Shown: positions 705 to 17,333, numbered from the stretch's first letter. The stretch is 18,298 nt of DNA from Candidatus Woesearchaeota archaeon (GCA_019323525.1 JAHWHD010000103.1:1-18298); one strand, 5' to 3'. The notes: generated by a model not told the origin, from the letters alone. Made by a program: numbers and translations.

Positions 705-725
705 TTGTTATACTTAATTCACTAT

Positions 726-1946: not shown

Positions 1947-1947
1947 A

Positions 1948-4133: not shown

Positions 4134-5222
4134 TCATTCGAGTTCTACAAACTCTCCATCATGTATTGTCTTGAGGTTTATTTCTTTCAGTGTAGAGCTT
4201 TTTGAAAACTTGATCTTTCCAGATGCACCCTCGAAATCAAGCTCCTTGACCTTATCCACCATGCACTCTGAATCATCACACCGTTCGATAAGATCTTTCA
4301 TGATATATACCATATCATAAGTGCTTGCAGACGAGAACTCTGCCTGTTCGCCATACCTTTTCTCATAGAGCTCTGAATACTCTGTAATCTCTGGTGTCGA
4401 GCCAGCCTTGTAATGGTACGTATAGACAATGCCGTCAGCCAGTTCACCAGCCCCTTCCATAAGGTCAGGCGTCTGTGTGTACCAGATACCTATGACAGGA
4501 ATGTCTATGCCAAGCTCTTTCTTCTGCTTTAGCATGTTAGCATAAGGTCCTGGGTTGAGACCCGCGAAGATAACATCAGGATCAGCCTTTTTAAGCTTTG
4601 CAAGCTGCACCCTGAACTCAGAAGCAAGCCAATCACTTGGCTGAATACTGATAACATCAACACCTTGCTTTTCAGCGATCTCTACCACAATCTCTCTATA
4701 ACTTTCATAAAAATCGTTCTGGTTATAGATGATCCCGAGAGTCTCATAACCCTGCTCCTCAACATACTCGAAGAGTTTGGTAACCTCTCTCCTCATCGAC
4801 GGCTGAAGGCTGAAATAATGCGGAAACTTACCTTCCAAAGACATGAGCCTGAACGATGGCGTGAAAACTATAGACTTCCCTTCTGTCACAGGAGCTACTG
4901 CTGGAGAGTTTGCTGAGCAGACAACTATGAACTTGTCAATACCCTGCGTCTGCATCTTGTTGACTGCAGTTACAGCTGGCTGTGCAGAGCACTGGTCATC
5001 CTCTACAACAAGCTCGAGCATCTTACCATCTATCCCTCCTGCTTCGTTTATCTCATCTATAGCAGTCTGTGCGCCTCTAAGGCTCCACTCACCTAACCTG
5101 GCTACAGGCCCTGTAAGAGGTCCTGAAAACCCTATCTTGATAGTATCTTCTGAACATCCTGCTACCAAGACCAATACAACAATTATTCCGAAAATAAGTT
5201 TGTTTTTTACCATATTGAACAT
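4134..5222 (-). CDS. ABC transporter substrate-binding protein, Liv/PBP type I family (SBP1), lipobox-like anchor
   Basis: Signal/anchor ..IIVVLVLVAGCSED. followed by IKIGFSGPLTGPVARLGEWSLRGAQTAIDEINEAGGIDGKMLELVVEDDQC..AVTAVNKM, typical of LivJ/LivK-like Peripla_BP_6 proteins. Alternative in-frame ATG at 5213 (MVKNK...). Confidence 0.9.
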   Translation of the reverse strand: MFNMVKNKLIFGIIVVLVLVAGCSEDTIKIGFSGPLTGPVARLGEWSLRGAQTAIDEINEAGGIDGKMLELVVEDDQCSAQPAVTAVNKMQTQGIDKFIVVCSANSPAVAPVTEGKSIVFTPSFRLMSLEGKFPHYFSLQPSMRREVTKLFEYVEEQGYETLGIIYNQNDFYESYREIVVEIAEKQGVDVISIQPSDWLASEFRVQLAKLKKADPDVIFAGLNPGPYANMLKQKKELGIDIPVIGIWYTQTPDLMEGAGELADGIVYTYHYKAGSTPEITEYSELYEKRYGEQAEFSSASTYDMVYIMKDLIERCDDSECMVDKVKELDFEGASGKIKFSKSSTLKEINLKTIHDGEFVELE

Positions 5223-5249
5223 ATATGTTATAGAACATATTTAAATTTG

Positions 5250-5271
5250 TGTTGTCAATTAATTAACGACA
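5250..5271. promoter_or_regulatory. candidate operator: imperfect palindrome tGTTGTCAATT|AATTAACGACa between the divergent SBP1 and TrmB1 promoters
   Basis: 9 of 11 arm positions pair. Flanked by ATATTTAAATTT (5237-5248, faces SBP1) and TTTATAAATA (5281-5290, 30 nt before ATG 5311). Confidence 0.55.
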
Positions 5272-5310
5272 GAAGAAAGATTTATAAATATATTAACATT
5301 TCTTCTGACA

Positions 5311-6042
5311 ATGGAAGAAGAACTAAGGGAATTCGGCCTTACCGATAAAGAGATTCAGGTATACCTTGCATGCCTTAAGCTGGGCTCTGCACTGGTCCAG
5401 GACATTGCAAAAGCAGCAGGCACGTACAGGACTTATACCTATGAGATTCTTAAATCATTAAAAGAAAAAGGGCTTGTTTCTTATGTGATTAGGTCAGGCA
5501 AGCAGTATTTTGAGGTCGCAGAGCCAGACAAACTTCTCAGTATCCTCAAAGAGAAAGAAGCAAAAATCAACAACATCATGCCACAATTAAAAGGCATATA
5601 CAAGACAGCTGTAGAAAAGCCAAAGATAGAGGTCTACGAAGGCAAAGAAGGTGTTAAGACAGTCATGGATGATATTGTAAGAACCAAACAAGAGGCTTTG
5701 GTTTACTGTTCTACAAGAAAACAAATGAACCTGCTTACATTCTATTTCCCAAACTTCATCAAAAGACGTATCAAGAACAAGATAAGGATCAAGGTTTTGG
5801 CAGAAGCTTCAAAAACAGCCATGGAATATGTCAAGACAAATAAACAAGAGTTAAGAGAGATGAGATTCTTGCCGATTGAGATGGAGTTTCCAACAGCTAC
5901 ATACATATATGGAAACAAAGTGGCGATAATGTCGCTAGAGAAAGATATTATTGGGGTGGTCATAGAAAGCGAGACAATTGCAAAGACACAAAGAATTGTG
6001 TTTGATCTATTATGGAGTGCAGCTCATCTTCCGCCAAAATAG
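5311..6042 (+). CDS. TrmB-family transcriptional regulator, short form (TrmB1, 243 aa)
   Basis: N-terminal winged HTH typical of TrmB: LREFGLTDKEIQVYLACLKLGSALVQDIAKAAGTYRTYTYEILKSLKEKGLVSYV. The C-terminal domain is shared with three paralogues in this window (IEVYEG.EGVKT, FPNFI, YGNKVAI, LLW). Confidence 0.85.
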   Translation: MEEELREFGLTDKEIQVYLACLKLGSALVQDIAKAAGTYRTYTYEILKSLKEKGLVSYVIRSGKQYFEVAEPDKLLSILKEKEAKINNIMPQLKGIYKTAVEKPKIEVYEGKEGVKTVMDDIVRTKQEALVYCSTRKQMNLLTFYFPNFIKRRIKNKIRIKVLAEASKTAMEYVKTNKQELREMRFLPIEMEFPTATYIYGNKVAIMSLEKDIIGVVIESETIAKTQRIVFDLLWSAAHLPPK

Positions 6043-6728
6043 ATATTCTTAATCTTCTTATCTTTAAGGATCTCTTTACCTCCCTCAAGAGCTATCTTTC
6101 CATCCTCAAGAACATAAGTCCTGTCAGCTATCTTTACAGCCTGTTTTGCATTCTGCTCGACTATAATGACAGATATGCCTTCCTTGTTTATCTCGACGAT
6201 CTTCTCAAATATGTGCTTCATTGCTTTCGGGGATAATCCAAGAGAAGGTTCATCTAAAAGAAGAAGTTCAGGACTTTGTATTAGAGCCCTTGCAATAGCT
6301 AACATCTGCTGCTGACCTCCTGAAAGAGTAAATGCGTAATCATTTTGTTTATCTTTAAGGAAAGAAAACTTCTCAAACACGTCTTGAAGGTTTCTTGCAA
6401 GTACCTCGCGGTCCTTCATAATAAACCCGCCCATCTCAAGGTTCTCTTTGACAGTCAGGTCAGAAAAAACCTGCCTTCCCTGAGGCACGTAACTCACACC
6501 CTCATAGATAAGTTCATGTGTTGGCAGTCTTGTTATGTTCTTATCCTTGAACATGATCTCCCCAGAATAAACCTTGCAGAGATTAAAGATACTTTTCAAT
6601 AACGTGCTTTTCCCAGCACCATTCGGACCGATTAACGCAACAATCTCAGCTGGTTTAACCTCTAAACTAACCTCTTTTAGAATCTCCATCCTGTCATATC
6701 CGGCTCGCAGTCCCTCTATCTTTAGCAT
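6024..6728 (-). CDS. livF: branched-chain amino acid type ABC transporter ATP-binding protein, LivF-like
   Basis: MLKIEGLRAGYDRMEILKEVSLEVKPAEIVALIGPNGAGKSTLLKSIF (Walker A), GVSYVPQGRQVFSDLTVKENLEMGGF (LivF-typical block), LSGGQQQMLAIARAL (signature), LLLLDEPSLGL (Walker B). Confidence 0.9.
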   Translation of the reverse strand: MLKIEGLRAGYDRMEILKEVSLEVKPAEIVALIGPNGAGKSTLLKSIFNLCKVYSGEIMFKDKNITRLPTHELIYEGVSYVPQGRQVFSDLTVKENLEMGGFIMKDREVLARNLQDVFEKFSFLKDKQNDYAFTLSGGQQQMLAIARALIQSPELLLLDEPSLGLSPKAMKHIFEKIVEINKEGISVIIVEQNAKQAVKIADRTYVLEDGKIALEGGKEILKDKKIKNIYFGGR

Positions 6729-6763
6729 AATAAAAAAAATAAAGAAAAAAGAGTTAATAAATG
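6729..6763 (-). promoter_or_regulatory. SBP2-to-livF junction element: TTTATTAAC-TC-TTTTTTC plus T8 on the coding strand (candidate internal promoter with embedded oligo-T terminator)
   Basis: Minus strand reads TAA-CATTTATTAACTCTTTTTTCTTTATTTTTTTTATT-ATG. The core TTTATTAAYNCTTTTTC recurs before livG and livH. Confidence 0.5.
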
Positions 6764-7867
6764 TTACCTTTGCAAAGGCCTGATCTCTCCTTCTTCAACA
6801 ATCCACCACATAAAATCTCTTACTGCATCTCCTTTGGCATTGACGCTGTAACTTCCTATCACACCTTCTCTATCTTCAAACGAGTAAAGCTTGTCTCTTA
6901 TGCATTTTGAGTCTGAGCACCCGTCAAGAGCATCATAAAGTGCCATGTAAACATCATACCCGAGCCCTGCATGCATCTCTTCAGGAACCTTTTCTCCAAA
7001 CTCTGCTTCATACGCTTTAAGATATTCCTTCATAGCATCAGAGCCACCATCATAAGCATACGTCAGTATCAAAAGCCCTTCAGCAGCCTCACCAATGACA
7101 TTCTTGAGCACTGTCCTTGAAAAAAACCCTTCATTCCCTATCAGCTGTGTTCCAATGTTAAGCTCTTTAGCCTGTTTCACAAGCAAAGCCCCTGATATCG
7201 GCGACTGCACAAGCATGAGTATTGCTTCTGGCCCAGCTTCATTGATCTTCAGCAGCTGCGTCTTCACATCACTGTCACCAGTGTTAAAGCTCTCGGCACT
7301 AACGATCTCTCCTCTAAAGCTGTCAACAAACGAGTCCTTCCAGCCGACAGCATAGTCGGTATTCTCATAAACGATTCCAATTCTTTCATACCCTGACTCT
7401 TCTAACATCAAAGCAGTCCTCTCTGCAAAAAGGTCAGCAGAGCTTGATATCCTAAAAACATAATCTCCAGCTTCTGAGATGGCTGGAGTGCTTGATATCG
7501 GAGATATCAGTATCTTTTCCTGAGCCTCTGTCAAAGGAGCGATTGCTAAAGTGCTGCCACCGCATATAGAGGAGACAACAATGTCAACACCATCAACATT
7601 CAACAGCTTATTTGCAGCAGTAACAGCTTCTTTTGGTATGCATTTGTCGTCTTCATAGATAACCTCAATCTCTCTTCCATTCACTGCGCTATATTGGGCA
7701 TGCGCAAGCTCAAAGGAGTTCTTGACATAGACGCCTGGATTAGCTAATGGGCCTGTAAGAGGTCCTATAAATCCTATCTTGACTGTCTGTTGTTCTTGCG
7801 GTAGATTCATGAATATAGCTATTGCAATAATTGCTACAATTCCAATGGTCAGTATTATTTTTTTCAT
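6764..7867 (-). CDS. ABC transporter substrate-binding protein, Liv/PBP type I family (SBP2), N-terminal TM anchor without lipobox Cys
   Basis: MKKIILTIGIVAIIAIAIFMNLPQEQQTVKIGFIGPLTGPLANPG..EVIYEDDKC..AVTAANKLL. Track start 7876 is a TTG. ATG 7867 fits the TATA spacing (TTTATATA on the minus strand at 7893-7900). Confidence 0.9.
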   Translation of the reverse strand: MKKIILTIGIVAIIAIAIFMNLPQEQQTVKIGFIGPLTGPLANPGVYVKNSFELAHAQYSAVNGREIEVIYEDDKCIPKEAVTAANKLLNVDGVDIVVSSICGGSTLAIAPLTEAQEKILISPISSTPAISEAGDYVFRISSSADLFAERTALMLEESGYERIGIVYENTDYAVGWKDSFVDSFRGEIVSAESFNTGDSDVKTQLLKINEAGPEAILMLVQSPISGALLVKQAKELNIGTQLIGNEGFFSRTVLKNVIGEAAEGLLILTYAYDGGSDAMKEYLKAYEAEFGEKVPEEMHAGLGYDVYMALYDALDGCSDSKCIRDKLYSFEDREGVIGSYSVNAKGDAVRDFMWWIVEEGEIRPLQR

Positions 7868-7903
7868 CTTACTCAAGGAGTAACTTCTTAAGTATATAAA
7901 CGC

Positions 7904-7926
7904 TTGTTGTAGAAAATCTACTACAA
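7904..7926. promoter_or_regulatory. candidate operator: palindrome TTGTTGTAGAA-A-ATCTACTACAA between the divergent SBP2 and TrmB2 promoters
   Basis: 9 of 11 arm positions pair around centre 7915. Flanked by TATATAAA (7893-7900, faces SBP2) and TTAAATA (about 7938-7944, roughly 27 nt before ATG 7968). Confidence 0.55.
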
Positions 7927-7967
7927 AATAGAAAAGCTTAAATACTGCAGTCTAACACTATTTTATC

Positions 7968-8687
7968 ATGTCAAAAGAATCAATACTAAAAGACCTTGGA
8001 CTCTCAGATAAAGAGATAAAAGTCTATCTTACCCTGCTCTCAGTCGGACAATCCACAGTAAACAAGATCGCATTAAAATCAAAACTTAACAGGGTGACAT
8101 GCTACGATGTGCTTAACTATCTGAAAGATAAAGGTCTTGTATCATACGTAATAAAGTCTGGCGTTAAGTATTTTGAGGCATCTGAACCGCAGAAACTTCT
8201 GGGAGATCTCCAGGAAAAAGAGGACAAACTAAAGTCAATACTTCCTGAACTAGAACTTCTTAAAAAATCAGTAAAGCAAAAACCCTCTATCGAGCTCTAC
8301 GAAGGCCTTGCTGGCCTCAAGACTGTTGTTGAGGACGTATTGAAGGAAAATAAGGAATGCTGGTTCCTTGTAGCACCTAACTTCATAGATGAACTTCAGT
8401 ACTATTTCCCTCATTTCATTACAAAGAAACGAAAACAAGGCATGTTCTCAAAAGTTATTGCAGAACACTGCGAAAGGATGCGTGATTACAAGAAGAACAA
8501 CCCCAAACGTTTTATTGATATGCGTCTTGTAAAAGCTAAGTTTCCCACAACAAAGATCATCTACGGAGATAAAGTAGCCATCCTAACATTCGAAAAAGAT
8601 AATTCTATAGGGATCATAATGGAGAACAAAGCTATAGCAGAAACTGAACGAAAACAGTTTAATCTTTTGTGGGGTATTGCTAAATAG
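7968..8687 (+). CDS. TrmB-family transcriptional regulator, short form (TrmB2, 239 aa)
   Basis: LKDLGLSDKEIKVYLTLLSVGQSTVNKIALKSKLNRVTCYDVLNYLKDKGLVSYV, and the shared C-terminal domain (IELYEG.AGLKT, FPHFI, YGDKVAI, LLW). Confidence 0.85.
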   Translation: MSKESILKDLGLSDKEIKVYLTLLSVGQSTVNKIALKSKLNRVTCYDVLNYLKDKGLVSYVIKSGVKYFEASEPQKLLGDLQEKEDKLKSILPELELLKKSVKQKPSIELYEGLAGLKTVVEDVLKENKECWFLVAPNFIDELQYYFPHFITKKRKQGMFSKVIAEHCERMRDYKKNNPKRFIDMRLVKAKFPTTKIIYGDKVAILTFEKDNSIGIIMENKAIAETERKQFNLLWGIAK

Positions 8688-9771
8688 CAACACCATTCAC
8701 AATCTTCTTAACTAGAAAATCTTTAGTGAACCCTCCTTTGCCGTCTGAAACAAGACTTCCAGAAACACCTTCATACTCTTCTATACCATTCATGTACTCC
8801 TGAAGTGCTGAAGGATCTGTCGAACCTGTCTCTCTCATTGCCTCGGCGATTATCATAACAGCATCATACGCTGAAGCTGCTCCTATGTCTATAGGTATTC
8901 CAAACTCTGCTTCATACCTTTCCTTAAATTCCTGTGTGGGTGTCAGGAATGTTAAGAATTCCATTCCCTCATAAGCCCCTTCTGCAGCCTTGATTACATC
9001 AGCGTCTATTGTTATGGAATACAATGGTAAGTCTACTCCAAGCTCCCTAGCTCTTTTAGCTACCAATACACCCACAAGCACACCGTCAGTTGTAGACACG
9101 ATTGCATCCATCTCTGTATTATCCTTGATTTTTAAAGCCTCTGTACTCACATCCTTCTCTTGAGGGTTAGGCTCAACTAAAACCTCTACAGAACCGCCAA
9201 GTTCTTTAAACCTATCACTGAACGCAGTAGTCTGGTCCTTTACCCAGACGTTTTGAGCTCCGATAAGGGCGACTTTCCTGTGTCCTTTTTCATATATCAG
9301 GTCTGCAAGGTTCTGTGATAATATAAAATCATGCGGCCATGTGTTAAACAATAACTTGCTTTCTTCATTAAATTCCTTGACACCCAATGAAGGAGACACC
9401 ATCAGGATGTTCTTCTCTTTAGCCAGTTCTACTAAAGGCAGCCCTGTATGCGACCATGTAGTTCCTATTATAACATCAATACCATCTAGCTCAGTCAATT
9501 TTCTAAAAGCGCTTAACGCATTTTTTGGGTCGCTATGGTCGTCCTCAAAAATCACTCTTAACGATTTTCCATTGACGCCTCCATCTGCGTTAATGTCTTG
9601 GACAGCCAAATCAATGCCATTCTTTGCTGCTGTTCCCCAAGAAGCTCCTTCGCCTGTCAAGATAAGGATGCTGCCTATTTTAATATCTTCAGCTTGCTTG
9701 CATCCTGATAAGGCTATTAATGAAATCATTGCGATAATCATGACATTTAAAATATAATCTCTTATTTTCAT
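8680..9771 (-). CDS. ABC transporter substrate-binding protein, Liv/PBP type I family (SBP3), lipobox-like anchor
   Basis: ..MISLIALSGCKQAEDIKIGSILILTGEGASWGTAAKNGIDLAVQDINADGGVNGKSLRVIFEDD... Its start lies 2 nt after the SBP4 stop, so the two are tightly coupled. Confidence 0.9.
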   Translation of the reverse strand: MKIRDYILNVMIIAMISLIALSGCKQAEDIKIGSILILTGEGASWGTAAKNGIDLAVQDINADGGVNGKSLRVIFEDDHSDPKNALSAFRKLTELDGIDVIIGTTWSHTGLPLVELAKEKNILMVSPSLGVKEFNEESKLLFNTWPHDFILSQNLADLIYEKGHRKVALIGAQNVWVKDQTTAFSDRFKELGGSVEVLVEPNPQEKDVSTEALKIKDNTEMDAIVSTTDGVLVGVLVAKRARELGVDLPLYSITIDADVIKAAEGAYEGMEFLTFLTPTQEFKERYEAEFGIPIDIGAASAYDAVMIIAEAMRETGSTDPSALQEYMNGIEEYEGVSGSLVSDGKGGFTKDFLVKKIVNGVAI

Positions 9772-9773
9772 TT

Positions 9774-10868
9774 TTATTCACCTATCCTAACAATATCTTC
9801 TCCTTCCACCCTGAACATCTTCTCCCTTACAGAACGTACAATACCGTCTTCGCTCATCGACAATGTGCCTGCCAATCCTTTGAAATCTTTTATAGAATAA
9901 AGAGAATTCTTTAACCCTTCACCGCGAACATCTCCTTTCTTCATAGCCTCTGCAACCATCATCATAGAATCATACCCTGTGACTGCAAACAATAACTGGT
10001 CTGGTATTTCTCCATACTCGGCTTCATACTTAGAAACAAATGCATCTAACTCTTCTGACTGTTCATCCCAGAAAGTGAAATAAGTACCATCAGCAGCACC
10101 TTGTGCACTCTCTATCACTGTCCTGGAGCTTATCGTGTCTATACCAACAAATTGTGACTCAATAGCCATCTCTCTTGCCTGTTTCAATACAATGCCTTGC
10201 TCCTCAAAACCTATGATAACTATAAAATCAAAATCACCTTCTTTCATCTTTGTCAGCTGCACCCTGAAATCTCCCTGGTCAGGATCATAACCTTCCAATC
10301 TCTCCACTTCACCGCCAAGTTCTGTGAATTGTTCTATAAAAGCCCCCTTTACAAGCTCGATAAAAGGGTCTGCTTTATTATACAATATCCCTGTCCGTTC
10401 CTCGCCCCTCTCTGCAAGAAATTCTGCCATAGTATAACCTATGCCTTCATCATATATGCCGACTGCAAAAGAATAATCTCCGACCTCGGCGATCTCTTCG
10501 CTTGTATCTACCGTATTTACGACAACAACCCTATCCCTCTCAGCATTGGGAGAGGTTGTGAATATCCCTGAATAACTTGTTGTAAGTACTACATCAACAT
10601 CATCCACTCTTGTGAATTTCTGATAATTGGTAAGAGTCTCCTTACCCTCAAACTTATCATCCTGGTACAAGAATTCTATCTGCTTTCCGTTGATACCTCC
10701 AGCAGCATTTATCTCATCGATAGCTATCTCTACACCGCGGAAATTGTTTTTGCCGAGAGATGCAAGATTGCCTGTAAGTCCGCCGCTCCATCCTACCTTA
10801 ACTGTGTCAGAAGAACATCCAAAAATAAACAAGCATAATACTAATATTGTTATTATTACGGTTTTCAT
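9774..10868 (-). CDS. ABC transporter substrate-binding protein, Liv/PBP type I family (SBP4), lipobox-like anchor
   Basis: MKTVIITILVLCLFIFGCSSDTVKVGWSGGLTGNLASLGKNNFRGVEIAIDEINAAGGINGKQIEFLYQDD.. Confidence 0.9.
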   Translation of the reverse strand: MKTVIITILVLCLFIFGCSSDTVKVGWSGGLTGNLASLGKNNFRGVEIAIDEINAAGGINGKQIEFLYQDDKFEGKETLTNYQKFTRVDDVDVVLTTSYSGIFTTSPNAERDRVVVVNTVDTSEEIAEVGDYSFAVGIYDEGIGYTMAEFLAERGEERTGILYNKADPFIELVKGAFIEQFTELGGEVERLEGYDPDQGDFRVQLTKMKEGDFDFIVIIGFEEQGIVLKQAREMAIESQFVGIDTISSRTVIESAQGAADGTYFTFWDEQSEELDAFVSKYEAEYGEIPDQLLFAVTGYDSMMMVAEAMKKGDVRGEGLKNSLYSIKDFKGLAGTLSMSEDGIVRSVREKMFRVEGEDIVRIGE

Positions 10869-10916
10869 TTTATATATTTTTACCAGAATTATTATATAAA
10901 TATATCGATAAAAAAA
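10869..10916 (-). promoter_or_regulatory. livG-to-SBP4 junction: T7 terminator candidate directly after the livG stop, then a TATA-like TTTATATA about 28 nt before the SBP4 ATG
   Basis: Minus strand reads TAG-TTTTTTT-ATCGATATATTTATATAATAATTCTGGTAAAAATATATAAA-ATG. A-run 10910-10916 and TATATAAA 10893-10900 on the plus strand. Confidence 0.45.
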
Positions 10917-11645
10917 CTATTCCCCAAGATAAGCCTCTAGAACCATCTTATTATTTTTTATCTTGTTTGGTTCACCTTCTGCGATAACCCTTCCCTCATC
11001 CATCACAATAACTTTATCAGCTATGCCCAATGTGAAGTTCATATCATGTTCTATTAACAATATCGTCTCGCCTTTTTTCTTTAACTCCAGCAATATATCT
11101 GCAATCTCCTTTCTTAGTTTAGGGTTAACCCCTGCTACTGGCTCGTCTAACATCAGCAACTGATGAGGTTTAGTCACTGTTCGCATTAACTCTACCAACC
11201 TTTTCTGACCAAAGCTTAAATTTCTAGTTAATCTGTTCTCAAACCTCTCCATACTCACCAGCTTCAGTGCGTCCTTAATCTCTTTATCATCAATCGTCCT
11301 GTCCTTAATAAGGTTCTTCCAGAACTTGGTGTTCTCAGTATCTAAACCTAGCATTAAATTATCTCTAACACTTAAATTTGTAAAGAGTTTAGAGCGCTGA
11401 AACAATCTAGAAATTCCAAGATTTGCGATTTTCTCTGGAGAAAGATTAGTTATATCAGTATTGTTAAATATCACCTTGCCAGAATCAGCCTTTAACACGC
11501 CTGATACAAGATTAAACATGGTAGTCTTACCAGAACCGTTCGGACCAATCAAAGCAGTAATCAGCCCTTTATCTACCTCAAAACTGCAGTTATTAACAGC
11601 TTTCACACCGCCAAAGTGTTTCCTGAGGTTTCTAATCTTTAACAT
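10917..11645 (-). CDS. livG: branched-chain amino acid type ABC transporter ATP-binding protein, LivG-like
   Basis: MLKIRNLRKHFGGVKAVNNCSFEVDKGLITALIGPNGSGKTTMFNLVSGVLKADSG (LivG-typical FGG.KAV and Walker A), LSFGQKRLVELMRTV (signature), LLMLDEPVAGVNP (Walker B), EAYLGE terminus. Confidence 0.9.
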   Translation of the reverse strand: MLKIRNLRKHFGGVKAVNNCSFEVDKGLITALIGPNGSGKTTMFNLVSGVLKADSGKVIFNNTDITNLSPEKIANLGISRLFQRSKLFTNLSVRDNLMLGLDTENTKFWKNLIKDRTIDDKEIKDALKLVSMERFENRLTRNLSFGQKRLVELMRTVTKPHQLLMLDEPVAGVNPKLRKEIADILLELKKKGETILLIEHDMNFTLGIADKVIVMDEGRVIAEGEPNKIKNNKMVLEAYLGE

Positions 11646-11687
11646 AAAGCAAATAAAGAGAAAAAGTGTTAATAAATCTTTGGATAT
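11646..11687 (-). promoter_or_regulatory. SBP5-to-livG junction element: ATCCAAAGA-TTTATTAAC-AC-TTTTTC (candidate internal promoter plus oligo-T)
   Basis: Minus strand reads TAA-ATATCCAAAGATTTATTAACACTTTTTCTCTTTATTTGCTTT-ATG. Shares the 17-nt core with the livF and livH junctions. Confidence 0.5.
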
Positions 11688-12791
11688 TTAAACCTTGATA
11701 AACAGGCCATCCTTAACCTGTTTGATAAATATTGGTTTCTCAACATCTCCGTTCTTATCAAAACTAAACACACCAGACCCTCCCTTAAAGCCTTTTGCAT
11801 TCAATAGATACTGCTTGGCATCATATGGGTTCTCACCAACCTTCTCTATCGCTGTAGCTAACACCATCATAGCATCATAAGATGTTGCAGCTGAAAAGTC
11901 TGGAAGTTCATTATATCTATCTTTGTATTTCTGAATAAATCCACTTATACTCTGTTCTTTAGAATCAGTATCATAGACGTATGGATATGTTAGTCCTTCG
12001 GCAACCTCGCTGTAATCTTTTAACAACTGCGCATTCTCTGCCCCGAACGATGCCAGCCATTTTACATCGACATCTAATTCTTTTGCCTGTTTCATTAACA
12101 AACCTAGTGTTGGACCAGATGCATGAAGATTAAAGATGGTATCTGGTTGCTCTTCATTAACTTTGATAATCTCTGAGTGTACATCTTTTTGGGTTAATAC
12201 AAATCCTTCCTCAGCAACAATCTCTCCGCCAAGTTCCTCAAAGCTCTCCCTAAAATGTTTAACATGCTCTTTACCAAAAGACGTTTCAGAACGTAAAACA
12301 CCTACCCTTCTTGAACCCATCTCATTATAAGCATACTCTGCTAATACATCCATCATATCATTTATGGTTGGCACTGTTCTAAAAAATAAATCATCCTGGC
12401 TTACTGTGTCTAGTATGCATACCGGTGATATGAGCAAAACCCCAGCTTCATTAGTAACAGGAACCATCGTACCTGTTGTCTCGCTCCAGGAATCCCCGAT
12501 TATGAATCTAACACCATCAAGATTGATTAACTTGTTAACAGCAGTCACTGCCTTTGCTGGCTGTGCTTCAGAATCCTCAACCACAAACTCTACCATCTTA
12601 CCATTGATACCCCCTCTAGTATTTATCTCTTCTTTAGCAATTTCTAATCCTCTCAGCTCTTGCTGTCCAAGATAAGATCCTACACCTGTCATGGTTCCGA
12701 CTACACCAATCTTAATGGTCTGTTTTTCTTGACATCCTGATAGTGCAATAATGCACACCAATACTACCAATATAACGATTTTTGTATTCAT
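11688..12791 (-). CDS. ABC transporter substrate-binding protein, Liv/PBP type I family (SBP5), lipobox-like anchor
   Basis: MNTKIVILVVLVCIIALSGCQEKQTIKIGVVGTMTGVGSYLGQQELRGLEIAKEEINTRGGINGKMVEFVVEDSEAQPAKAVTAVNKLI. Confidence 0.9.
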   Translation of the reverse strand: MNTKIVILVVLVCIIALSGCQEKQTIKIGVVGTMTGVGSYLGQQELRGLEIAKEEINTRGGINGKMVEFVVEDSEAQPAKAVTAVNKLINLDGVRFIIGDSWSETTGTMVPVTNEAGVLLISPVCILDTVSQDDLFFRTVPTINDMMDVLAEYAYNEMGSRRVGVLRSETSFGKEHVKHFRESFEELGGEIVAEEGFVLTQKDVHSEIIKVNEEQPDTIFNLHASGPTLGLLMKQAKELDVDVKWLASFGAENAQLLKDYSEVAEGLTYPYVYDTDSKEQSISGFIQKYKDRYNELPDFSAATSYDAMMVLATAIEKVGENPYDAKQYLLNAKGFKGGSGVFSFDKNGDVEKPIFIKQVKDGLFIKV

Positions 12792-12829
12792 TCTAAACCT
12801 GTATACTGCAGAATCTACTTAAAAATTAG

Positions 12830-12847
12830 TCCTCCAATATTGTAGGA
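12830..12847. promoter_or_regulatory. candidate operator: palindrome TCCTCCAAT|ATTGTAGGA between the divergent SBP5 and TrmB3 promoters
   Basis: 8 of 9 arm positions pair. Flanked by TTAAAAATTA (12819-12828, faces SBP5) and TTTAAATATA (12859-12868, centre about 26 nt before ATG 12890). Confidence 0.5.
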
Positions 12848-12889
12848 TAGAAATAAACTTTAAATATAACCCTTCTTCTATTACAATAT

Positions 12890-13603
12890 ATGGACACGAA
12901 AATTTTAGAAGATATTGGATTAACCCAGAGAGAGATCAAGGTTTATCTAGCTTTACTAGAGCTAGGTCCAAGCACAGCAGGTTCTGTTCTGGAAAAAGCC
13001 AATCTTCAGAACTCGGTTTTCCATTTCTGTGTTAATCGTTTGATTGACAAAGGACTTGTTTCATATGTTAAGAAAGGAAAAGTTAGGGTTTACCAGGCAG
13101 CTGACCCTGACCAGTTCTTGATCTATGTCAAGGATAAGGAAAACCAGGTTCAGAAATTACTTCCAGAATTAAAAGCAAAACAGTCTTTTGCTAAAGATAA
13201 GCAAGAGGTTGAACTGTTTGAGGGTATAAAAGGAATCTATACTTTGATGAACACAATGATTAACAATGCCAAGAGAGGAGATGAACATCTGTTCTTTTCA
13301 GCTGACATAGACGAGATAAACGAAGATATCCAGAAATTCTTCAGAAGGTTCGATGCAAAACGAAAAGATAAAGGTATACTTGCAAAAGGCATTGCCCCCA
13401 AAAAACTAAAATACCTGTTCAAAGGACGTCCTATAAAGATGAAATACACAAATACGCCAATACCGGCCAACAGTGCTGTATGCGGTGACATGTTGAACTA
13501 TATTGTCTGGGGAGATAAACCAACAGGGGTACTAATAAAATCAAAGCATATCGCAAAAAAACAAAAAGAGTTCTTTAAGGAATTGTGGAATTCGATTAGA
13601 TAA
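12890..13603 (+). CDS. TrmB-family transcriptional regulator, short form (TrmB3, 237 aa), the most divergent paralogue
   Basis: LEDIGLTQREIKVYLALLELGPSTAGSVLEKANLQNSVFHFCVNRLIDKGLVSYV, then VELFEG.KGI and ELW near the C-terminus. Confidence 0.8.
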   Translation: MDTKILEDIGLTQREIKVYLALLELGPSTAGSVLEKANLQNSVFHFCVNRLIDKGLVSYVKKGKVRVYQAADPDQFLIYVKDKENQVQKLLPELKAKQSFAKDKQEVELFEGIKGIYTLMNTMINNAKRGDEHLFFSADIDEINEDIQKFFRRFDAKRKDKGILAKGIAPKKLKYLFKGRPIKMKYTNTPIPANSAVCGDMLNYIVWGDKPTGVLIKSKHIAKKQKEFFKELWNSIR

Positions 13604-13604
13604 G

Positions 13605-14465
13605 TTATCCTAGTTCAACCTTTCCATAAAACCCTTTAGGTCTGTAAATCAATATCAATAGTAATATCAAAGCAAACATAATCTGTCTTGCAGGTCCTAC
13701 CACTGACGAAGGAAATCCGATAAACCTTAAAGGTTCTGGTAATAACACCAAAATTATAGTTGCGACCACGGTACCTCTTAATGATGCAAGACCTGCTATG
13801 ATAACAATAGCCAGTAATGGTATCAGCTGCAACAATGTAAATGACGAAGGGTCTATAAATGTGATATAATGCGCATATAACGATCCAGCAATACCTGCAA
13901 AAAAAGCAGAAACACCAAGAGCATAACTTTTCATCTTAAAAGTGTTCTTGCCAAGTGTTCTTGCAGCTAACTCATCATCCCTGATAGCTTCTAAAACCTT
14001 ACCAAAACCAGAGTTAGCAATCCTTTTTATTATATAATATGAGACCAAAGCAACAACTATGACTAAAGCAAGAAAACCAAGGTTATGAGAGACTATATCG
14101 GGCCTTGGTATACCTGGCAAACCTAACGGCCCTCTTGTCAAACCTGTCCAGTTCAGTGCAACTGCATACACCACAAAGGTAAAACCTAAAGTTGCCAGAG
14201 CAAGATAATCTCCTTTAAGTTTATTCGTAGGAATAGCTAACAGAAAACCGAACAGCATCGCCATCGCACCAGCCGCTATAATAGAAACCCAGAATGGCAC
14301 TCCGTTCAAAGCCAATAATGCCGATGTATAAGCACCCAGAGCAAAAAAAGCAATATGCCCTAAATTTAGTAATCCCGTAAAACCCATTGCCAACTGCAAA
14401 GATATGGCCAAGATTAGGTAAATCCCTATCAAAATAGCTAAGTGTATGAAATAAGCTTCTATCAT
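13605..14465 (-). CDS. livM: branched-chain amino acid type ABC transporter permease, LivM-like
   Basis: Polytopic membrane protein with GFTGLLNLGHIAFFALGAYTSALL and DDELAARTLGKNTFKMKSYALGVSAFFAGIAGSLYA, both LivM-type blocks. Its ATG overlaps the livH stop (ATGA at 14462-14465). Confidence 0.9.
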   Translation of the reverse strand: MIEAYFIHLAILIGIYLILAISLQLAMGFTGLLNLGHIAFFALGAYTSALLALNGVPFWVSIIAAGAMAMLFGFLLAIPTNKLKGDYLALATLGFTFVVYAVALNWTGLTRGPLGLPGIPRPDIVSHNLGFLALVIVVALVSYYIIKRIANSGFGKVLEAIRDDELAARTLGKNTFKMKSYALGVSAFFAGIAGSLYAHYITFIDPSSFTLLQLIPLLAIVIIAGLASLRGTVVATIILVLLPEPLRFIGFPSSVVGPARQIMFALILLLILIYRPKGFYGKVELG

Positions 14466-15328
14466 TTTTTAATCCCTAGTATGCCTTTTGGTTTAAACAA
14501 TAGGAATACGAACAGTATAATAAAAGCAATCGCATCCTTATAACCTGACGGTAAAAACCATATCCCGAAGTTCTCCGCAAAACCTAACAAAAACGAACCC
14601 AGAACAGCTCCTGGCACTGAGCCAATACCTCCTATGATGGCCCCTGTAAATCCTTTAACTATTAAATTTGTACCCATCATTGGCTCTAGGTTCTGCTCCA
14701 GACCGACCAGGATAGCAGCAACACCTGCAATAGCAGACCCTATCACGAATGACCAGCTATAGATTCTTTTAGAGGAAATGCCCATGATCTCTGCAACATC
14801 TTTATTATCAGAGACAGCTCTCATCGCTTTGCCTATCCTGGTCTTTTTCATAATTATATAGAGCAGGACAAGTAAGATTACAGATGTTGCAATAATAAAT
14901 ATCTGTAACGGAGTTATGACAGCTCCAATAAACTCTAAACCCTTTGCCACCTTAATGTAGCCGATTGTCTTTACATCAGCTCCAAACAAGATCAGTATTA
15001 AGGATTCTATAAATATTAACAATGCAAAGCTTGCAATTAATAGAATGATCGAGCTTGCTTTTCTTTTTCTTAACTGTTCATAAACAATAATGTTCATCAA
15101 TAGTCCAAAGAGACTTGCAAACACAATTGCAAAAATAACAGATAACCAGAAGTTCAATCCTAGGACAGAGAACAAAAAGTACAGGAAATAAGCAGAAAAC
15201 GCAACAGTCGCACCATGTGCAAAATGTATAAACTTACAAGTCGAATATATCAAGGAAAAACCAGACGACACTAAAGCGTATATCGCGCCTGCTATTAGCC
15301 CATTTACTAACAGTTGTGTAAATACCAT
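14462..15328 (-). CDS. livH: branched-chain amino acid type ABC transporter permease, LivH-like
   Basis: LLVNGLIAGAIYALVSSGFSLIYSTCKFIHFAHGA.. and GKAMRAVSDNKDVAEIMGISSKRIYSWSFVIGSAIAGVAAIL are LivH-type blocks. Confidence 0.9.
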   Translation of the reverse strand: MVFTQLLVNGLIAGAIYALVSSGFSLIYSTCKFIHFAHGATVAFSAYFLYFLFSVLGLNFWLSVIFAIVFASLFGLLMNIIVYEQLRKRKASSIILLIASFALLIFIESLILILFGADVKTIGYIKVAKGLEFIGAVITPLQIFIIATSVILLVLLYIIMKKTRIGKAMRAVSDNKDVAEIMGISSKRIYSWSFVIGSAIAGVAAILVGLEQNLEPMMGTNLIVKGFTGAIIGGIGSVPGAVLGSFLLGFAENFGIWFLPSGYKDAIAFIILFVFLLFKPKGILGIKK

Positions 15329-15391
15329 GTTTTTGTCAATTTAACGAAAAAGAATTAATAAAGGTTTGGATTTTTAAAAAATAATAAAAAA
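15329..15391 (-). promoter_or_regulatory. SBP6-to-livH junction element: T6/T6 tracts, then ATCCAAACC-TTTATTAAT-TC-TTTTTC (candidate terminator plus internal promoter)
   Basis: Minus strand reads TGA-TTTTTTATTATTTTTTAAAAATCCAAACCTTTATTAATTCTTTTTCGTTAAATTGACAAAAAC-ATG. Confidence 0.5.
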
Positions 15392-16438
15392 TCATCTCCA
15401 TCCATCACTATACTCCACTGTCTTCACTGGCAACACAGCAACTCCGTCTTTATCAAATTTAGTGGGGCCTGTCACAAACTCAAACTCTGAAGTCAAAAGT
15501 TTCTCTTTGATACACTCTGAATCTCCGCATTCATCCAATACTTCTAAAAGTATCTTCATGTTTGTGTAAGCATATGCTGAGTATCCGTTTGGTTCTTCAC
15601 CATAGCTTGCCCTATACAGGTCTATAAACCCTTTAACTCCAGCATCCATAGGATCAAAATATAAATCACTGCCAACAGCCCCTTCAAACAATCCGTGCTC
15701 TTCGGCAATCTCAACTGCTTTTAAATCTCCTGAGGCAGTCCCTGTATTGAAAGGTACAATCAGTTTTACATCAAGGTCAAGCTCAATCATTGTCTCAAAT
15801 ATCTCAGGGAAAAACTTACTATACGTATAGATAACAAGACCTTCAGGTTCTTTTTCCTTTATTTTAGTCAAAACTGTTCTGAAACCAGGATCTTTAATAC
15901 TAAACCTTTCTAATGCAACCATCTCTGTTTTAATCCCTAGTTCACACTCTGCACCTCCGCCCTCTAGGTCACCCATGTACGCAATTCTATCTGTTCCTCT
16001 CTCAACCGCGTTCTCAGTTGCAACCTCACAGAAAGTTCTTGCATCTGGAAATCCATCAAAAACATACTCCTTACCCTCAGCAATCCCTCTTGATGTTGAA
16101 GAGTATAGTAAAAAAACCTCATTCTTTTCCGCGATTGGAGCTACTGCCATGCTCACACTACTTAAGCTAGAGATTAATACAGGGACCTCATCAATTGAAA
16201 TAAGCTTATTAGCTGCTGTAACAGCCTTTTCAGGATTAGTCTCACTGTCCTCTACAATCAATTGAACATCAGAACCCTCTAAAGCTAACATTAAACCCTT
16301 TAATGTGGGTTCGCCTATGTAAGCCCCTTTTCCAGTCAATGGCAGTATAGCTCCTATCTTAATTTTTTCAGTAGGTGTACAACCAATAATGATTATGATG
16401 GCCATCATTGTAAAAATGATTTTCTTCATGTTTATCAC
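15392..16438 (-). CDS. ABC transporter substrate-binding protein, Liv/PBP type I family (SBP6), lipobox-like anchor
   Basis: ..KKIIFTMMAIIIIIGCTPTEKIKIGAILPLTGKGAYIGEPTLKGL..LIVEDSETNPEKAVTAANKLI. The start is ambiguous: GTG at 16438 (27 nt from the TATA centre) or ATG at 16429 (MKKIIF...). Confidence 0.9.
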   Translation of the reverse strand: MINMKKIIFTMMAIIIIIGCTPTEKIKIGAILPLTGKGAYIGEPTLKGLMLALEGSDVQLIVEDSETNPEKAVTAANKLISIDEVPVLISSLSSVSMAVAPIAEKNEVFLLYSSTSRGIAEGKEYVFDGFPDARTFCEVATENAVERGTDRIAYMGDLEGGGAECELGIKTEMVALERFSIKDPGFRTVLTKIKEKEPEGLVIYTYSKFFPEIFETMIELDLDVKLIVPFNTGTASGDLKAVEIAEEHGLFEGAVGSDLYFDPMDAGVKGFIDLYRASYGEEPNGYSAYAYTNMKILLEVLDECGDSECIKEKLLTSEFEFVTGPTKFDKDGVAVLPVKTVEYSDGWR

Positions 16439-16472
16439 CAGGTAATGAGTATACTGGAGGATATATAATACT

Positions 16473-16493
16473 TTGTTGTAATCATAACAACAA
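16473..16493. promoter_or_regulatory. candidate operator: 21-bp palindrome TTGTTGTAAT-C-ATAACAACAA between the divergent SBP6 and TrmB4 promoters
   Basis: 9 of 10 arm positions pair, and the outer 7 bp are perfect (TTGTTGT/ACAACAA). Flanked by ATATATAATA (16461-16470, faces SBP6) and TTTATAAA (16496-16503, 30 nt before ATG 16526). Confidence 0.6.
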
Positions 16494-16525
16494 CATTTAT
16501 AAATGTATGACTATTTTACACTATT

Positions 16526-17245
16526 ATGGACATAAAACTATTACAAGAATTAGGATTAAGCAATACCGAATCTAAGGTATATATAGCGTTACTTGAACTA
16601 GGCTCCGCTTTAGCAGGTGAGATTACAAAAAAATCAGGTGTAAACAGGACAAATGTCTACGATGCTTTAGAGAGATTGATTGAGAAAGGTCTTGTTACAT
16701 TTGTTATCTCTGCAAATAGAAAGATGTTTGAACCAGTAGAACCTGAAAGATTACAAGAGATTCTTAAAGAAAAACAAGCAAAACTAGATTCATTAATGCC
16801 AGAGCTTCAATTAAAGTATAAGGCAAGCAGAGCAAAAGAAGAGGCAACTGTATACAGAGGAAAAAAAGGGATTAAAACTATCTTTGAAGATATACTAAAA
16901 GAAAATAAAGATTTGTACGCCTATGGTGCAGAGAGCAGGTTCAAGACTTTATTTCCATACTATCAAAAACACTGGAATAGCAGAAGAGCAAAACAAGGTA
17001 TAAAACTAAACATAATCTGGTCTGAAAGAGTAAGAAAAACAAAGCTTAAAGAGAAATTTAAACTGACAAACAAGAGATTTCTGCCAAGATCTTATGAATT
17101 CCCATCTTCAGTGGTTATCTATGGTGATAGGGTAGTAACCTTTGTCTGGGCAGAAGTGCCGTTTGGTTTTATGATAAAAAGTAAAGAAGCTACAAAGAGT
17201 AACATGGGTTTTTTTAGATTGTTATGGAACCAGGCAAGTAAATAA
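16526..17245 (+). CDS. TrmB-family transcriptional regulator, short form (TrmB4, 239 aa)
   Basis: LQELGLSNTESKVYIALLELGSALAGEITKKSGVNRTNVYDALERLIEKGLVTFV, and the shared C-terminal domain (YRGKKGIKT, YGDRVV, LLW). Confidence 0.85.
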   Translation: MDIKLLQELGLSNTESKVYIALLELGSALAGEITKKSGVNRTNVYDALERLIEKGLVTFVISANRKMFEPVEPERLQEILKEKQAKLDSLMPELQLKYKASRAKEEATVYRGKKGIKTIFEDILKENKDLYAYGAESRFKTLFPYYQKHWNSRRAKQGIKLNIIWSERVRKTKLKEKFKLTNKRFLPRSYEFPSSVVIYGDRVVTFVWAEVPFGFMIKSKEATKSNMGFFRLLWNQASK

Positions 17246-17260
17246 GAAACCTATCAAAAA

Positions 17261-17274
17261 CCAAAGCTTTTTGG
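17261..17274 (+). terminator. short hairpin CCAAA-GCTT-TTTGG containing a T5 run, 16 nt after the TrmB4 stop
   Basis: Seen directly: ccaaagctttttgg, with T5 at 17268-17272. This is the only trmB paralogue followed by an oligo-T tract. Confidence 0.4.
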
Positions 17275-17333
17275 AGGTTCTAAAATCTCTGATTTTAGTA
17301 ACATTTAAATACCAAAATTCTATAATCATAGGT

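What the first reader, a model, noticed from the sequence alone, without database searches (positions are those of the whole stretch)
4134..17245. One split LivHMGF translocon shared among six SBP paralogues and four dedicated TrmB-family regulators in four repeated divergent cassettes
Seen in sequence: 13 kb holds exactly one livH, livM, livG and livF, and they are not contiguous. The four cassettes are: (1) SBP1 <-> TrmB1. (2) livF <- SBP2 <-> TrmB2. (3) SBP3 <- SBP4 <- livG <- SBP5 <-> TrmB3. (4) livM <- livH <- SBP6 <-> TrmB4. Every cassette begins with an SBP gene divergent from its own TrmB paralogue across an 87-100 bp spacer, and no cassette encodes a complete transporter. By eye the SBPs are only about a third identical to each other, so these are old, maintained duplicates rather than a recent amplification. 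Established knowledge: classical liv loci are contiguous (livKHMGF). In E. coli two receptors (LivJ, LivK) share one translocon. The characterised TrmB of Thermococcales is a sugar-sensing regulator embedded in a sugar ABC cluster. These regulators are about 100 aa shorter than that TrmB and are paired with PBP type I (amino-acid family) receptors. Inference: a receptor-switching uptake system in which one translocon is re-addressed to different substrates by six interchangeable receptors, and each receptor set is gated by its own one-component sensor-regulator.
Basis: partly seen in the sequence, partly recalled or inferred. Interest (0 to 1): 0.8.

Follow-up and report, generated by a model that had tools for sequence, protein, structure and literature searches.

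The report
Multi-receptor uptake island with private regulators
A tiny-genome (DPANN, Woesearchaeota) archaeon carries one ABC import channel served by six different binding-protein receptors, four of which sit back-to-back with their own small TrmB-type regulator and a private DNA operator. This layout turns out to be common in related uncultivated archaea and has not been described before.

Summary
In detail: six Peripla_BP_6 SBPs, four ~240-aa TrmB-family regulators, and one each of livH, livM, livG and livF. Four SBP<->TrmB divergent spacers measure 87-98 bp.

- Read on the minus strand, the island keeps the canonical H-M-G-F order, with SBP or TrmB-SBP modules inserted.
- In 32 related long loci there is one livH each with 1-10 SBPs. 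SBPs or TrmBs are interleaved in 26 of 31, and 25 of 26 island TrmBs are divergent from an SBP.
- Each spacer holds a unique palindrome 3 nt from the SBP-side TATA box. The palindromes are conserved in orthologues and co-vary with the regulator's recognition helix, so they are very likely operators.
- The regulators have TrmBL2-type architecture (wHTH, helix, PLD-like domain) and no sugar-sensing subdomain. They belong to a large DPANN/CPR family.
- Close orthologues of the four regulators are mostly not SBP-linked (6 of 24). "Dedicated sensor" is therefore unproven.
- The SBP pockets all differ and the substrates are unknown.
- livF, livG and livH may have their own promoters.

This is a new variant of known kinds (shared-translocon ABC importer; TrmB-regulated transporter).

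The parts
4134..5222 (-). SBP1, Peripla_BP_6 receptor with a lipobox-like signal (..LVAGC)
   Evidence: Pfam E 1.5e-53; sequence
5239..5246 (-). TATA-like box for SBP1, 3 nt from the operator
5250..5271 (.). Operator 1, TGTTGTCAATTAATTAACGACA. Conserved upstream of TrmB1-clade genes in L003-L009.
5281..5290 (+). TATA box of TrmB1, 30 nt before the ATG (leaderless-type)
5311..6042 (+). TrmB1, short TrmB-family regulator (recognition helix YRTYTYEILKSL)
6024..6728 (-). livF-type ABC ATPase. Its 3' end overlaps TrmB1 by 19 nt.
6754..6761 (-). TTTATTAA, putative own TATA of livF (inferred)
6764..7876 (-). SBP2, Peripla_BP_6. N-terminal anchor without a lipobox Cys.
7892..7900 (-). TATA-like box for SBP2, 3 nt from the operator
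7904..7926 (.). Operator 2, TTGTTGTAGAAAATCTACTACAA. Conserved in the TrmB2 clade (L083, L015).
7936..7945 (+). TATA-like box of TrmB2
7968..8687 (+). TrmB2 regulator (helix NRVTCYDVLNYL)
8680..9771 (-). SBP3, 2 nt downstream of SBP4 (co-transcribed with it)
9774..10868 (-). SBP4, with its own TATA-like TTTATATAA at 10892-10900. No TrmB operator.
10917..11645 (-). livG-type ABC ATPase (BCA_ABC_TP_C tail). TTTATTAA at 11669-11676.
11688..12791 (-). SBP5, Peripla_BP_6
12830..12847 (.). Operator 3, TCCTCCAATATTGTAGGA. It lies between TATA-like boxes at 12818-12826 and 12858-12868. The TCCTnC..GnAGGA class is conserved in L085, L130 and L040.
12890..13603 (+). TrmB3 regulator (helix QNSVFHFCVNRL)
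13605..14465 (-). livM-type permease
14462..15328 (-). livH-type permease. TTTATTAA at 15355-15362.
15392..16438 (-). SBP6, Peripla_BP_6. Orthologues are paired with TrmB4 orthologues in L053, L063 and L065.
16473..16493 (.). Operator 4, TTGTTGTAATCATAACAACAA. It lies between TATA boxes at 16461-16469 and 16496-16505. Conserved in 10 orthologous loci.
16526..17245 (+). TrmB4 regulator (helix NRTNVYDALERL). This is the protein whose structure was modelled.

Best explanation
This is a HAAT-family (Liv/Urt-type, TC 3.A.1.4) ABC import island of a DPANN archaeon. One LivH-LivM-LivG-LivF translocon, still in canonical gene order, serves six membrane-tethered binding-protein receptors whose ligand pockets all differ.

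Four receptor-led transcription units were created by insertion of portable regulatory modules. Each module is a short, autoregulated TrmB-family transcription factor (winged helix, dimerisation helix and PLD-like domain, i.e. TrmBL2-type architecture) plus a bidirectional archaeal promoter with a private palindromic operator.

The regulator dimer binds its own palindrome. The palindrome lies 3 nt from the receptor gene's TATA box, so it overlaps the BRE, and 2-10 nt upstream of the regulator's own TATA. Most likely the regulator represses the receptor promoter by blocking TFB/TBP and also controls its own synthesis. The four operator/recognition-helix pairs differ, so the units are insulated from one another. 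The translocon genes and SBP4-SBP3 probably also have their own promoters.

Shown by computation: families, architecture, conservation across genomes, operator footprints, helix/operator covariation, the regulator fold and pocket divergence.

Inferred: physical sharing of the translocon, repression rather than activation, any effector, and independent translocon promoters.
For: - Families are confirmed.
- Pocket-aligned residues share 0-4 of 12 positions between paralogues.
- In 32 related loci of at least 9 kb there is one livH each with 1-10 SBPs. SBPs or TrmBs are interleaved in 26 of 31. 25 of 26 island TrmBs are divergent from an SBP.
- Translocon proteins are 62-80% identical across genomes, while SBPs are at most ~50% identical.
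- Each operator occurs once in the window, against 0.00-0.04 expected from shuffles.
- Operators are conserved in orthologous spacers while the flanking sequence diverges.
- Recognition helix and operator class co-vary over about 55 loci.
- Geometry is uniform: 3 nt to the SBP-side TATA in all four spacers.
- TrmB genes show a TATA peak at -30 (0.68 per gene).
- The family as a whole is biased towards a divergent neighbour (66/77 vs 243/469, p = 9e-9) and towards upstream palindromes (p = 8e-7).
- Cognate TrmB and SBP co-diverge: Mantel r = 0.39, p = 2e-4, and r = 0.21-0.28 after dereplication.
- The structure model has pLDDT 91.7. Foldseek gives TrmBL2 at E 1e-13, TrmB at 5e-9, and PLD-fold nucleases for the C-terminal domain.
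- The TrmB review states that sites at the BRE/TATA repress (PMC4158304).
Against: - No expression or binding data exist.
- Only 18 kb of the genome is visible, so a second translocon elsewhere cannot be excluded.
- By the TrmB-family rule, a site upstream of BRE/TATA can activate, and here the operator lies upstream of both TATA boxes.
- Close orthologues of all four regulators mostly lie next to unrelated small genes. The regulator-receptor link is therefore evolutionarily labile.
- TrmBL2, the closest structural match, has no known ligand.
- The clade-wide TATA signal upstream of the liv genes is weak. Own promoters for livF, livG and livH rest on a TTTATTAAC motif shared with only a few relatives.
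- The pocket comparison relies on a 25-30% identity alignment to LivJ, and the list of LivJ pocket residues comes from memory.
Confidence: 0.6

Rival explanations
1. Same architecture, but the short TrmBs are activators. Bound to the palindrome between the two TATA boxes, they recruit TBP/TFB to one or both divergent promoters, as Ptr2 does and as TrmBL1/Tgr do at gluconeogenic genes.
For: The operator is upstream of both TATA boxes. The TrmB-family review states that sites upstream of BRE/TATA go with activation. On the regulator side the 9-10 nt gap leaves the BRE free in three of four spacers.
Against: On the SBP side the gap is only 3 nt, so the operator overlaps the BRE. That resembles the repressive TrmB site at malE. 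In sp4 the operator also abuts the regulator's own TATA (2 nt).
Confidence: 0.25
2. Strict cassette gating. livH-livM, livG and livF are expressed only by read-through from the TrmB4-, TrmB3- and TrmB2-controlled SBP promoters, so a working transporter needs several cassettes switched on together. Each TrmB senses the substrate of its own receptor.
For: The translocon genes lie 35-63 nt downstream of SBP genes on the same strand. No TrmB operator sits in front of them.
Against: - T-runs follow the SBP2, SBP5 and SBP6 stop codons, and a shared TTTATTAAyNCTTTTT lies 31-34 nt before livF, livG and livH.
- What follows SBP6 orthologues differs between genomes.
- The regulators lack a known sensor subdomain.
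- Orthologous regulators occur without SBPs.
Confidence: 0.12
3. The six SBPs do not share this translocon. Some may dock to transporters encoded elsewhere, or have non-transport roles such as sensing or attachment to a host cell.
For: Only 18 kb of the genome is seen. SBP-TrmB pairs occur without any liv permease within 10 kb in L009 and L040. SBP identities of ~30% are far below the ~80% of LivJ/LivK (established knowledge, from memory).
Against: All 32 related long loci have exactly one livH with up to 10 SBPs interleaved among the translocon genes. Orphan SBPs using a distant translocon are a known pattern (PMC3223731).
Confidence: 0.12
4. The adjacency has no regulatory meaning. The short TrmBs are self-regulated, mobile or general factors (or TrmBL2-like chromatin proteins) that happen to insert next to SBP genes in a recombination-prone island.
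For: Most family members and most orthologues are next to unrelated genes. TA-like modules interrupt sister islands. The best structural match is the chromatin protein TrmBL2.
Against: - 25 of 26 island TrmBs are divergent from an SBP.
- The 3-nt spacing to the SBP TATA is fixed.
- TrmB and SBP co-diverge significantly.
- Sequence-specific palindromes that co-vary with the recognition helix argue against non-specific chromatin binding.
Confidence: 0.06

Closest known systems
E. coli LivJ/LivK-LivHMGF, and other importers whose translocon accepts several SBPs (HisJ/ArgT-HisQMP, Opp systems)
   Same: Same transporter family and the same H-M-G-F gene order. More than one receptor per translocon. 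Sharing is documented but called 'relatively rare' (PMC3971661; orphan SBPs in PMC3223731).
   Different: Six receptors here, and up to ten in relatives, at only 25-33% identity. They are interleaved between the translocon genes. No protein reaches NCBIfam equivalog cut-offs. The host is an archaeon with archaeal promoters. The substrates are unknown.
TrmB of Thermococcus litoralis / Pyrococcus furiosus in the trehalose/maltose ABC cluster
   Same: PF01978 winged helix, a dimerisation helix and a PLD-like domain. The regulator gene is embedded in an SBP-dependent ABC cluster. A palindromic operator lies at the BRE/TATA of the SBP gene.
   Different: These proteins lack the C-terminal beta-barrel subdomain that holds most sugar contacts: there is no PF11495 hit and the fold ends after the PLD-like domain. 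There are four paralogues with four operators in one island. They are paired with type I (LivJ-like) receptors, not sugar receptors.
TrmBL2 (Thermococcus kodakarensis TK0471; PDB 5box, 5bpd)
   Same: Best full-length structural match (Foldseek E 1e-13). Similar length and domain set, with no sensor subdomain.
   Different: Only 18-20% identity. TrmBL2 is an abundant, largely sequence-independent chromatin protein and global repressor (PMC3031468 abstract). The proteins here have clade-specific palindromes that co-vary with the recognition helix, and several paralogues occur per genome.
MreA of Methanosarcina acetivorans and other sensor-less TrmB-family regulators
   Same: A TrmB-family factor without the sugar sensor domain that still acts as a gene regulator (PMC3419521 abstract).
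   Different: No relationship was tested here beyond family membership. MreA is a global regulator of methanogenic pathways and is not paired with transporter receptors.

Membership tests
HAAT-family ABC importer (LivHMGF type) | Two BPD_transp_2 permeases plus two ABC_tran ATPases, one with the LivG C-terminal motif | tested here: met
   Pfam E 4e-41 and 2.5e-48 (permeases), 3e-35 and 3e-30 (ATPases). BCA_ABC_TP_C is present on the livG product.
HAAT-family ABC importer (LivHMGF type) | Type I periplasmic binding protein of the Peripla_BP_6 / LivJ fold | tested here: met
   All six SBPs match at E 1.6e-33 to 8e-58. SBP5 hits LivJ, LivK and other HAAT SBP structures at E 1e-28 to 1.5e-33.
HAAT-family ABC importer (LivHMGF type) | Equivalence to the E. 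coli branched-chain amino-acid system (curated equivalog score; LivJ ligand-contact residues) | tested here: not met
   All NCBIfam scores are far below the cut-offs, and Urt (urea) models score similarly. No SBP keeps the LivJ contact set, matching 1-3 of 12 positions. The substrate is therefore open.
Shared-translocon multi-SBP system | More SBP genes than translocons | tested here: met
   Six SBPs to one translocon in the window. One livH with 1-10 SBPs in each of 32 related loci. The whole-genome count was not available.
Shared-translocon multi-SBP system | Different SBPs physically dock to and deliver through the same permease pair | not testable with these tools
   This needs reconstitution or genetics.
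TrmB family (PF01978) | N-terminal winged helix-turn-helix of the TrmB type, followed by a long dimerisation helix | tested here: met
   PF01978 above cut-off in all four. The profile hits 3qph at E 2e-9. The model has helix 74-102 after the wHTH.
TrmB family (PF01978) | Effector domain with the C-terminal sugar-binding subdomain (as in TrmB, TrmBL1, Tgr) | tested here: not met
   There is no Pfam hit beyond residue ~75. The model ends after a single PLD-like domain, which matches NucT and Nuc. No invariant His, Lys or Asp is present, so there is no HKD catalytic motif.
TrmB family (PF01978) | Palindromic operator at or near the BRE/TATA of target promoters | tested here: met
   Comparative footprints and helix/operator covariation. 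Binding itself was not tested.
TrmBL2 subfamily | Two-domain architecture without a sensor subdomain | tested here: met
   Foldseek full-length match to 5bpd, 5box and 5bqt at E 1e-13.
TrmBL2 subfamily | Sequence-independent chromatin binding, with a single abundant copy per genome | tested here: inconclusive
   Specific palindromes and multiple paralogues per genome argue against it: four in the window, three in L011, four in L066. No binding data exist.

The most novel reading that the evidence does not exclude
The short-TrmB gene plus bidirectional promoter plus SBP units are orthogonal, exchangeable 'plug-in receptor cassettes'. DPANN archaea would shuffle them into a conserved LivHMGF backbone to build custom nutrient-scavenging repertoires. 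The PLD-like domain of each regulator would sense the imported ligand inside the cell. The same regulator family, shared with CPR bacteria, would be a main programmable transcription-factor system of ultra-small cells, with a readable recognition-helix-to-operator code.
Probability: 0.2. Interest if true: 0.8.

Novelty: new variant of a known kind. Interest (0 to 1): 0.58.

Why it matters
DPANN archaea have very small genomes, lack most amino-acid biosynthesis (PMC11606122) and are uncultivated. What they take up and how they regulate genes is therefore largely unknown.

This island devotes about 13 kb to one import channel with six differently shaped receptors and four private regulators. Relatives carry up to ten receptors.

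The comparative data yield concrete, testable predictions for organisms that cannot be grown:
- four regulator-operator pairs in this window;
- roughly ten recognition-helix/operator classes across the family;
- a fixed promoter geometry.

These could be tested with purified proteins and synthetic DNA. The result also cautions against reading 'livJ/K' annotations as branched-chain amino-acid uptake.

Tried and rejected
1. Recovering a longer source contig. Exact look-up of TrmB1 found only 1.3-1.4 kb Logan contigs, so the number of translocons in the genome stays unknown.
2. Co-duplication from the window alone or from 13 pairs. The signal came entirely from TrmB4/SBP6 orthologues (r = -0.10 after collapsing them). 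That negative result was revised when 32 pairs gave a moderate positive signal.
3. Guessing the regulators' signal from the genes next to non-SBP orthologues. The neighbours are small, soluble proteins without Pfam matches and with no common theme.
4. Assigning substrates through NCBIfam or LivJ pocket residues. No assignment was possible.
5. Clade-wide positional TATA test for independent liv promoters. The result was weak for livH and livF and absent for livG and livM, which usually follow the preceding gene directly.
6. Extra operator copies in front of livF, livG, livH or SBP4. None were found.
7. tRNA and Rfam scans of the window. Nothing was found.
8. Literature search for an earlier description. 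None was found for TrmB with SBPs in DPANN. One paper notes a complete liv pathway in 1 of 9 Woesearchaeota MAGs.
9. The idea that the regulators are truncated or degenerate sugar-TrmBs was rejected. They form conserved clades with a confident, complete two-domain fold.

Full report
**1. What is in the window**

- There are six Peripla_BP_6 binding proteins (SBP1-6).
- There are four proteins of 237-243 aa whose only Pfam match is the TrmB winged helix at residues 5-74.
- There are two BPD_transp_2 permeases (livH, livM) and two ABC ATPases (livG, carrying the BCA_ABC_TP_C tail, and livF).
- SBP paralogues are 25-33% identical and the regulators are 30-43% identical.
- The four divergent SBP/TrmB spacers are 88, 91, 98 and 87 bp.
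- Five of the six SBPs have a lipobox-like ..G-C after the signal helix.
- The contig is from a Candidatus Woesearchaeota (DPANN) MAG. The flanking genes are an archaeal-type A24 peptidase, two HIT proteins and a MazG-like protein.

Read along the minus strand, the order is [TrmB4|SBP6] livH livM [TrmB3|SBP5] livG SBP4 SBP3 [TrmB2|SBP2] livF [TrmB1|SBP1]. The translocon genes are separated but keep the canonical H-M-G-F order.

**2. The architecture is a lineage trait**

A metagenome scan with LivH returned 80 loci with orthologues at 68-82% identity. Wherever close LivH relatives carry a source name, it is archaeal or DPANN: Woesearchaeota, Aenigmatarchaeota or 'archaeon'. In the 32 loci of at least 9 kb:
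- Each has one livH.
- The usual order is livH..livM..livG..livF on one strand.
- SBP or TrmB genes lie between the translocon genes in 26 of 31 loci.
- SBP counts run from 1 to 10.
- Ten loci carry divergent TrmB-SBP units (up to five), and 25 of the 26 TrmB genes in these islands are divergent from an SBP gene.

Translocon proteins are 62-80% identical between genomes, whereas SBP orthologues reach only 34-56%. This fits a conserved channel with rapidly diversifying receptors.

Cassette content is not conserved. Downstream of the SBP6 orthologue lies livH-livM in the window, a livG/F ORF in L053, and nothing on the same strand in L063 and L065. Toxin-antitoxin-like genes interrupt sister islands.

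**3. The regulators**

A 56-sequence alignment gave a confident model (pLDDT 91.7). It consists of a winged helix, a long helix (74-102) and one alpha/beta domain.
- Foldseek matches full-length TrmBL2 (E 1e-13) and TrmB (E 5e-9). The C-terminal domain matches PLD-fold nucleases NucT and Nuc.
- No invariant His, Lys or Asp is present, so there is no HKD catalytic motif.
- The missing ~100 aa is therefore the C-terminal subdomain. By my own knowledge of the TrmB structures, that subdomain carries most of the sugar contacts.
- A sensor function is consequently neither excluded nor supported.

The family is large, with at least 1,970 hits. It is spread over DPANN archaea and CPR bacteria. Each of the four window paralogues belongs to its own clade with members 60-76% identical elsewhere.

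**4. The operators**

Each spacer has two outward-facing TATA-like boxes and a central palindrome. Each palindrome pattern occurs once in the window, against 0.00-0.04 expected. Each is conserved upstream of orthologous regulator genes while the flanks diverge:
- TGTTGTCA-N6-TAACGACA in the TrmB1 clade.
- TTGTTGTAGAAAATC.. in the TrmB2 clade.
- TCCTnC..GnAGGA in the TrmB3 clade.
- TTGTTGTAA..ACAACAA in the TrmB4 clade.

Over about 55 loci the recognition-helix sequence tracks the operator class. Examples: NRTNVYDALERL with TTGTTGTAA..ACAACAA in 11 loci, YRTYTYE[IV]LKSL with TGTTGTCA..ACGACA in 8 loci, and S/G-K-x-Y helices with CCCC..GGGG palindromes. Islands with several units have a different palindrome in each.

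The palindrome lies 3 nt from the SBP-side TATA in all four spacers, and 9, 9, 10 and 2 nt from the regulator-side TATA. TrmB genes have a sharp TATA peak at -30, consistent with leaderless mRNAs. According to the TrmB review, sites at the BRE/TATA repress and sites upstream of it can activate. I favour repression of the SBP promoter together with autoregulation, and I keep activation as a serious alternative.

**5. How dedicated are the regulators?**

From the regulator side they are not dedicated.
- In a regulator-seeded scan of one genome per species, only 9 of 109 family members lie next to an SBP.
- Among orthologues at 50% identity or more, the counts are 1/9, 0/3, 1/2 and 4/10 for TrmB1 to TrmB4.
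- The other neighbours are unrelated small proteins.
- Being divergent from a neighbour and carrying an upstream palindrome are family-wide traits.

From the receptor side the link is strong: 25 of 26 in islands. Cognate TrmB and SBP similarities are correlated over 32 pairs (r = 0.39, p = 2e-4; r = 0.21-0.28 after dereplication). Clear partner swaps also occur. An earlier 13-pair test had shown no signal once orthologues were collapsed.

The best reading is of portable, self-regulated TF-promoter modules that are repeatedly recruited to receptor genes and then partly co-inherited with them.

**6. Receptors and substrates**

Aligned to verified LivJ, the twelve pocket positions share 0-4 residues between paralogues and 1-3 with LivJ. 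The list of LivJ pocket residues comes from memory. NCBIfam scores are far below the curated cut-offs, and urea-system models score about as well as Liv models. Experimental screens have shown that COG0683 proteins often bind ligands other than branched-chain amino acids (PMC3223731). The pockets are clearly not identical, so that refutation criterion fails, but the substrates are unknown.

**7. Translocon expression**

livF, livG and livH are each preceded by TTTATTAAyNCTTTTT 31-34 nt before the ATG, and by T-runs after the upstream SBP stop codon. SBP4 has its own TTTATATAA. L053, L110 and L142 share the motif, but the clade-wide signal is weak. Independent translocon promoters are therefore an inference.

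**8. Comparison and novelty**

Receptor sharing of a translocon is known but rare (PMC3971661). TrmB embedded in an ABC cluster is also known. A Woesearchaeota paper notes liv genes in 1 of 9 MAGs. I found no description of the interleaved multi-receptor islands, of TrmBL2-type regulators paired with type I receptors, or of the operator code.

**Verdict:** This is a new variant of known kinds, with interest 0.58.

Noticed in passing
L022, L028, L049-L052, L057, L064, L066, L067, L073, L076, L077, L081 (match at about 10001-10730 in most): The same ~240-aa TrmB family (32-39% identity) is present in many CPR bacteria (Buchanan-, Peregrini-, Gracili-, Peri-, Komeili- and Saccharibacteria) as well as in DPANN archaea. 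An ultra-small-cell regulator family is thus shared across domains.
   Followed up: partly
L053:5329-5983, L053:11772-12679, L063:6036-6982: Small gene pairs with nucleotidyltransferase (MNT-like) or ParE-like matches sit between liv genes in sister islands. This suggests toxin-antitoxin insertions and recombination-prone islands.
   Followed up: partly
L053:5984-6898: One 304-aa ORF matches livG over its first ~206 residues (62%) and livF over its last ~107 (80%). It could be a livG/livF hybrid, a deletion product or an assembly chimera.
   Followed up: no
window 705-1562; L060:8851-9711: An archaeal-type A24 (prepilin/preflagellin) peptidase lies 2.5 kb from the island. Another lies immediately downstream of a TrmB4 orthologue in L060. 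A link to SBP or surface-protein processing was not examined.
   Followed up: no
window 6024-6042, 8680-8687, 13603-13605: Each TrmB gene ends against the 3' end of the preceding minus-strand unit. The overlaps are 19 nt with livF and 8 nt with SBP3, and there is a 1-nt gap to livM. This leaves no room for terminators between convergent genes.
   Followed up: no
window 5213-5222, 7867-7876, 16429-16438: TATA positions suggest that SBP1, SBP2 and SBP6 start at the ATG three codons downstream of the longest-ORF start (MVKNK.., MKKII.., MKKII..), giving leaderless or near-leaderless mRNAs.
   Followed up: partly
window 6764-7876: SBP2 alone lacks the lipobox cysteine found in the other five SBPs. 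It appears to keep an uncleaved N-terminal membrane anchor.
   Followed up: no
L085:8716-9879: The gene divergent from a TrmB3 orthologue encodes a 387-aa protein with Sigma70_r4 and RNA_pol_A_CTD domains. These are bacterial-type transcription domains, on a contig that also carries three short-TrmB genes.
   Followed up: no
L065:12707-14302: A 531-aa ORF matches the short-TrmB profile. It is about twice the normal length, so it may be a tandem fusion or an extended variant.
   Followed up: no
window 1617-2280 and 17222-18165: Five small ORFs (99-180 aa) flanking the island have no Pfam match.
   Followed up: no
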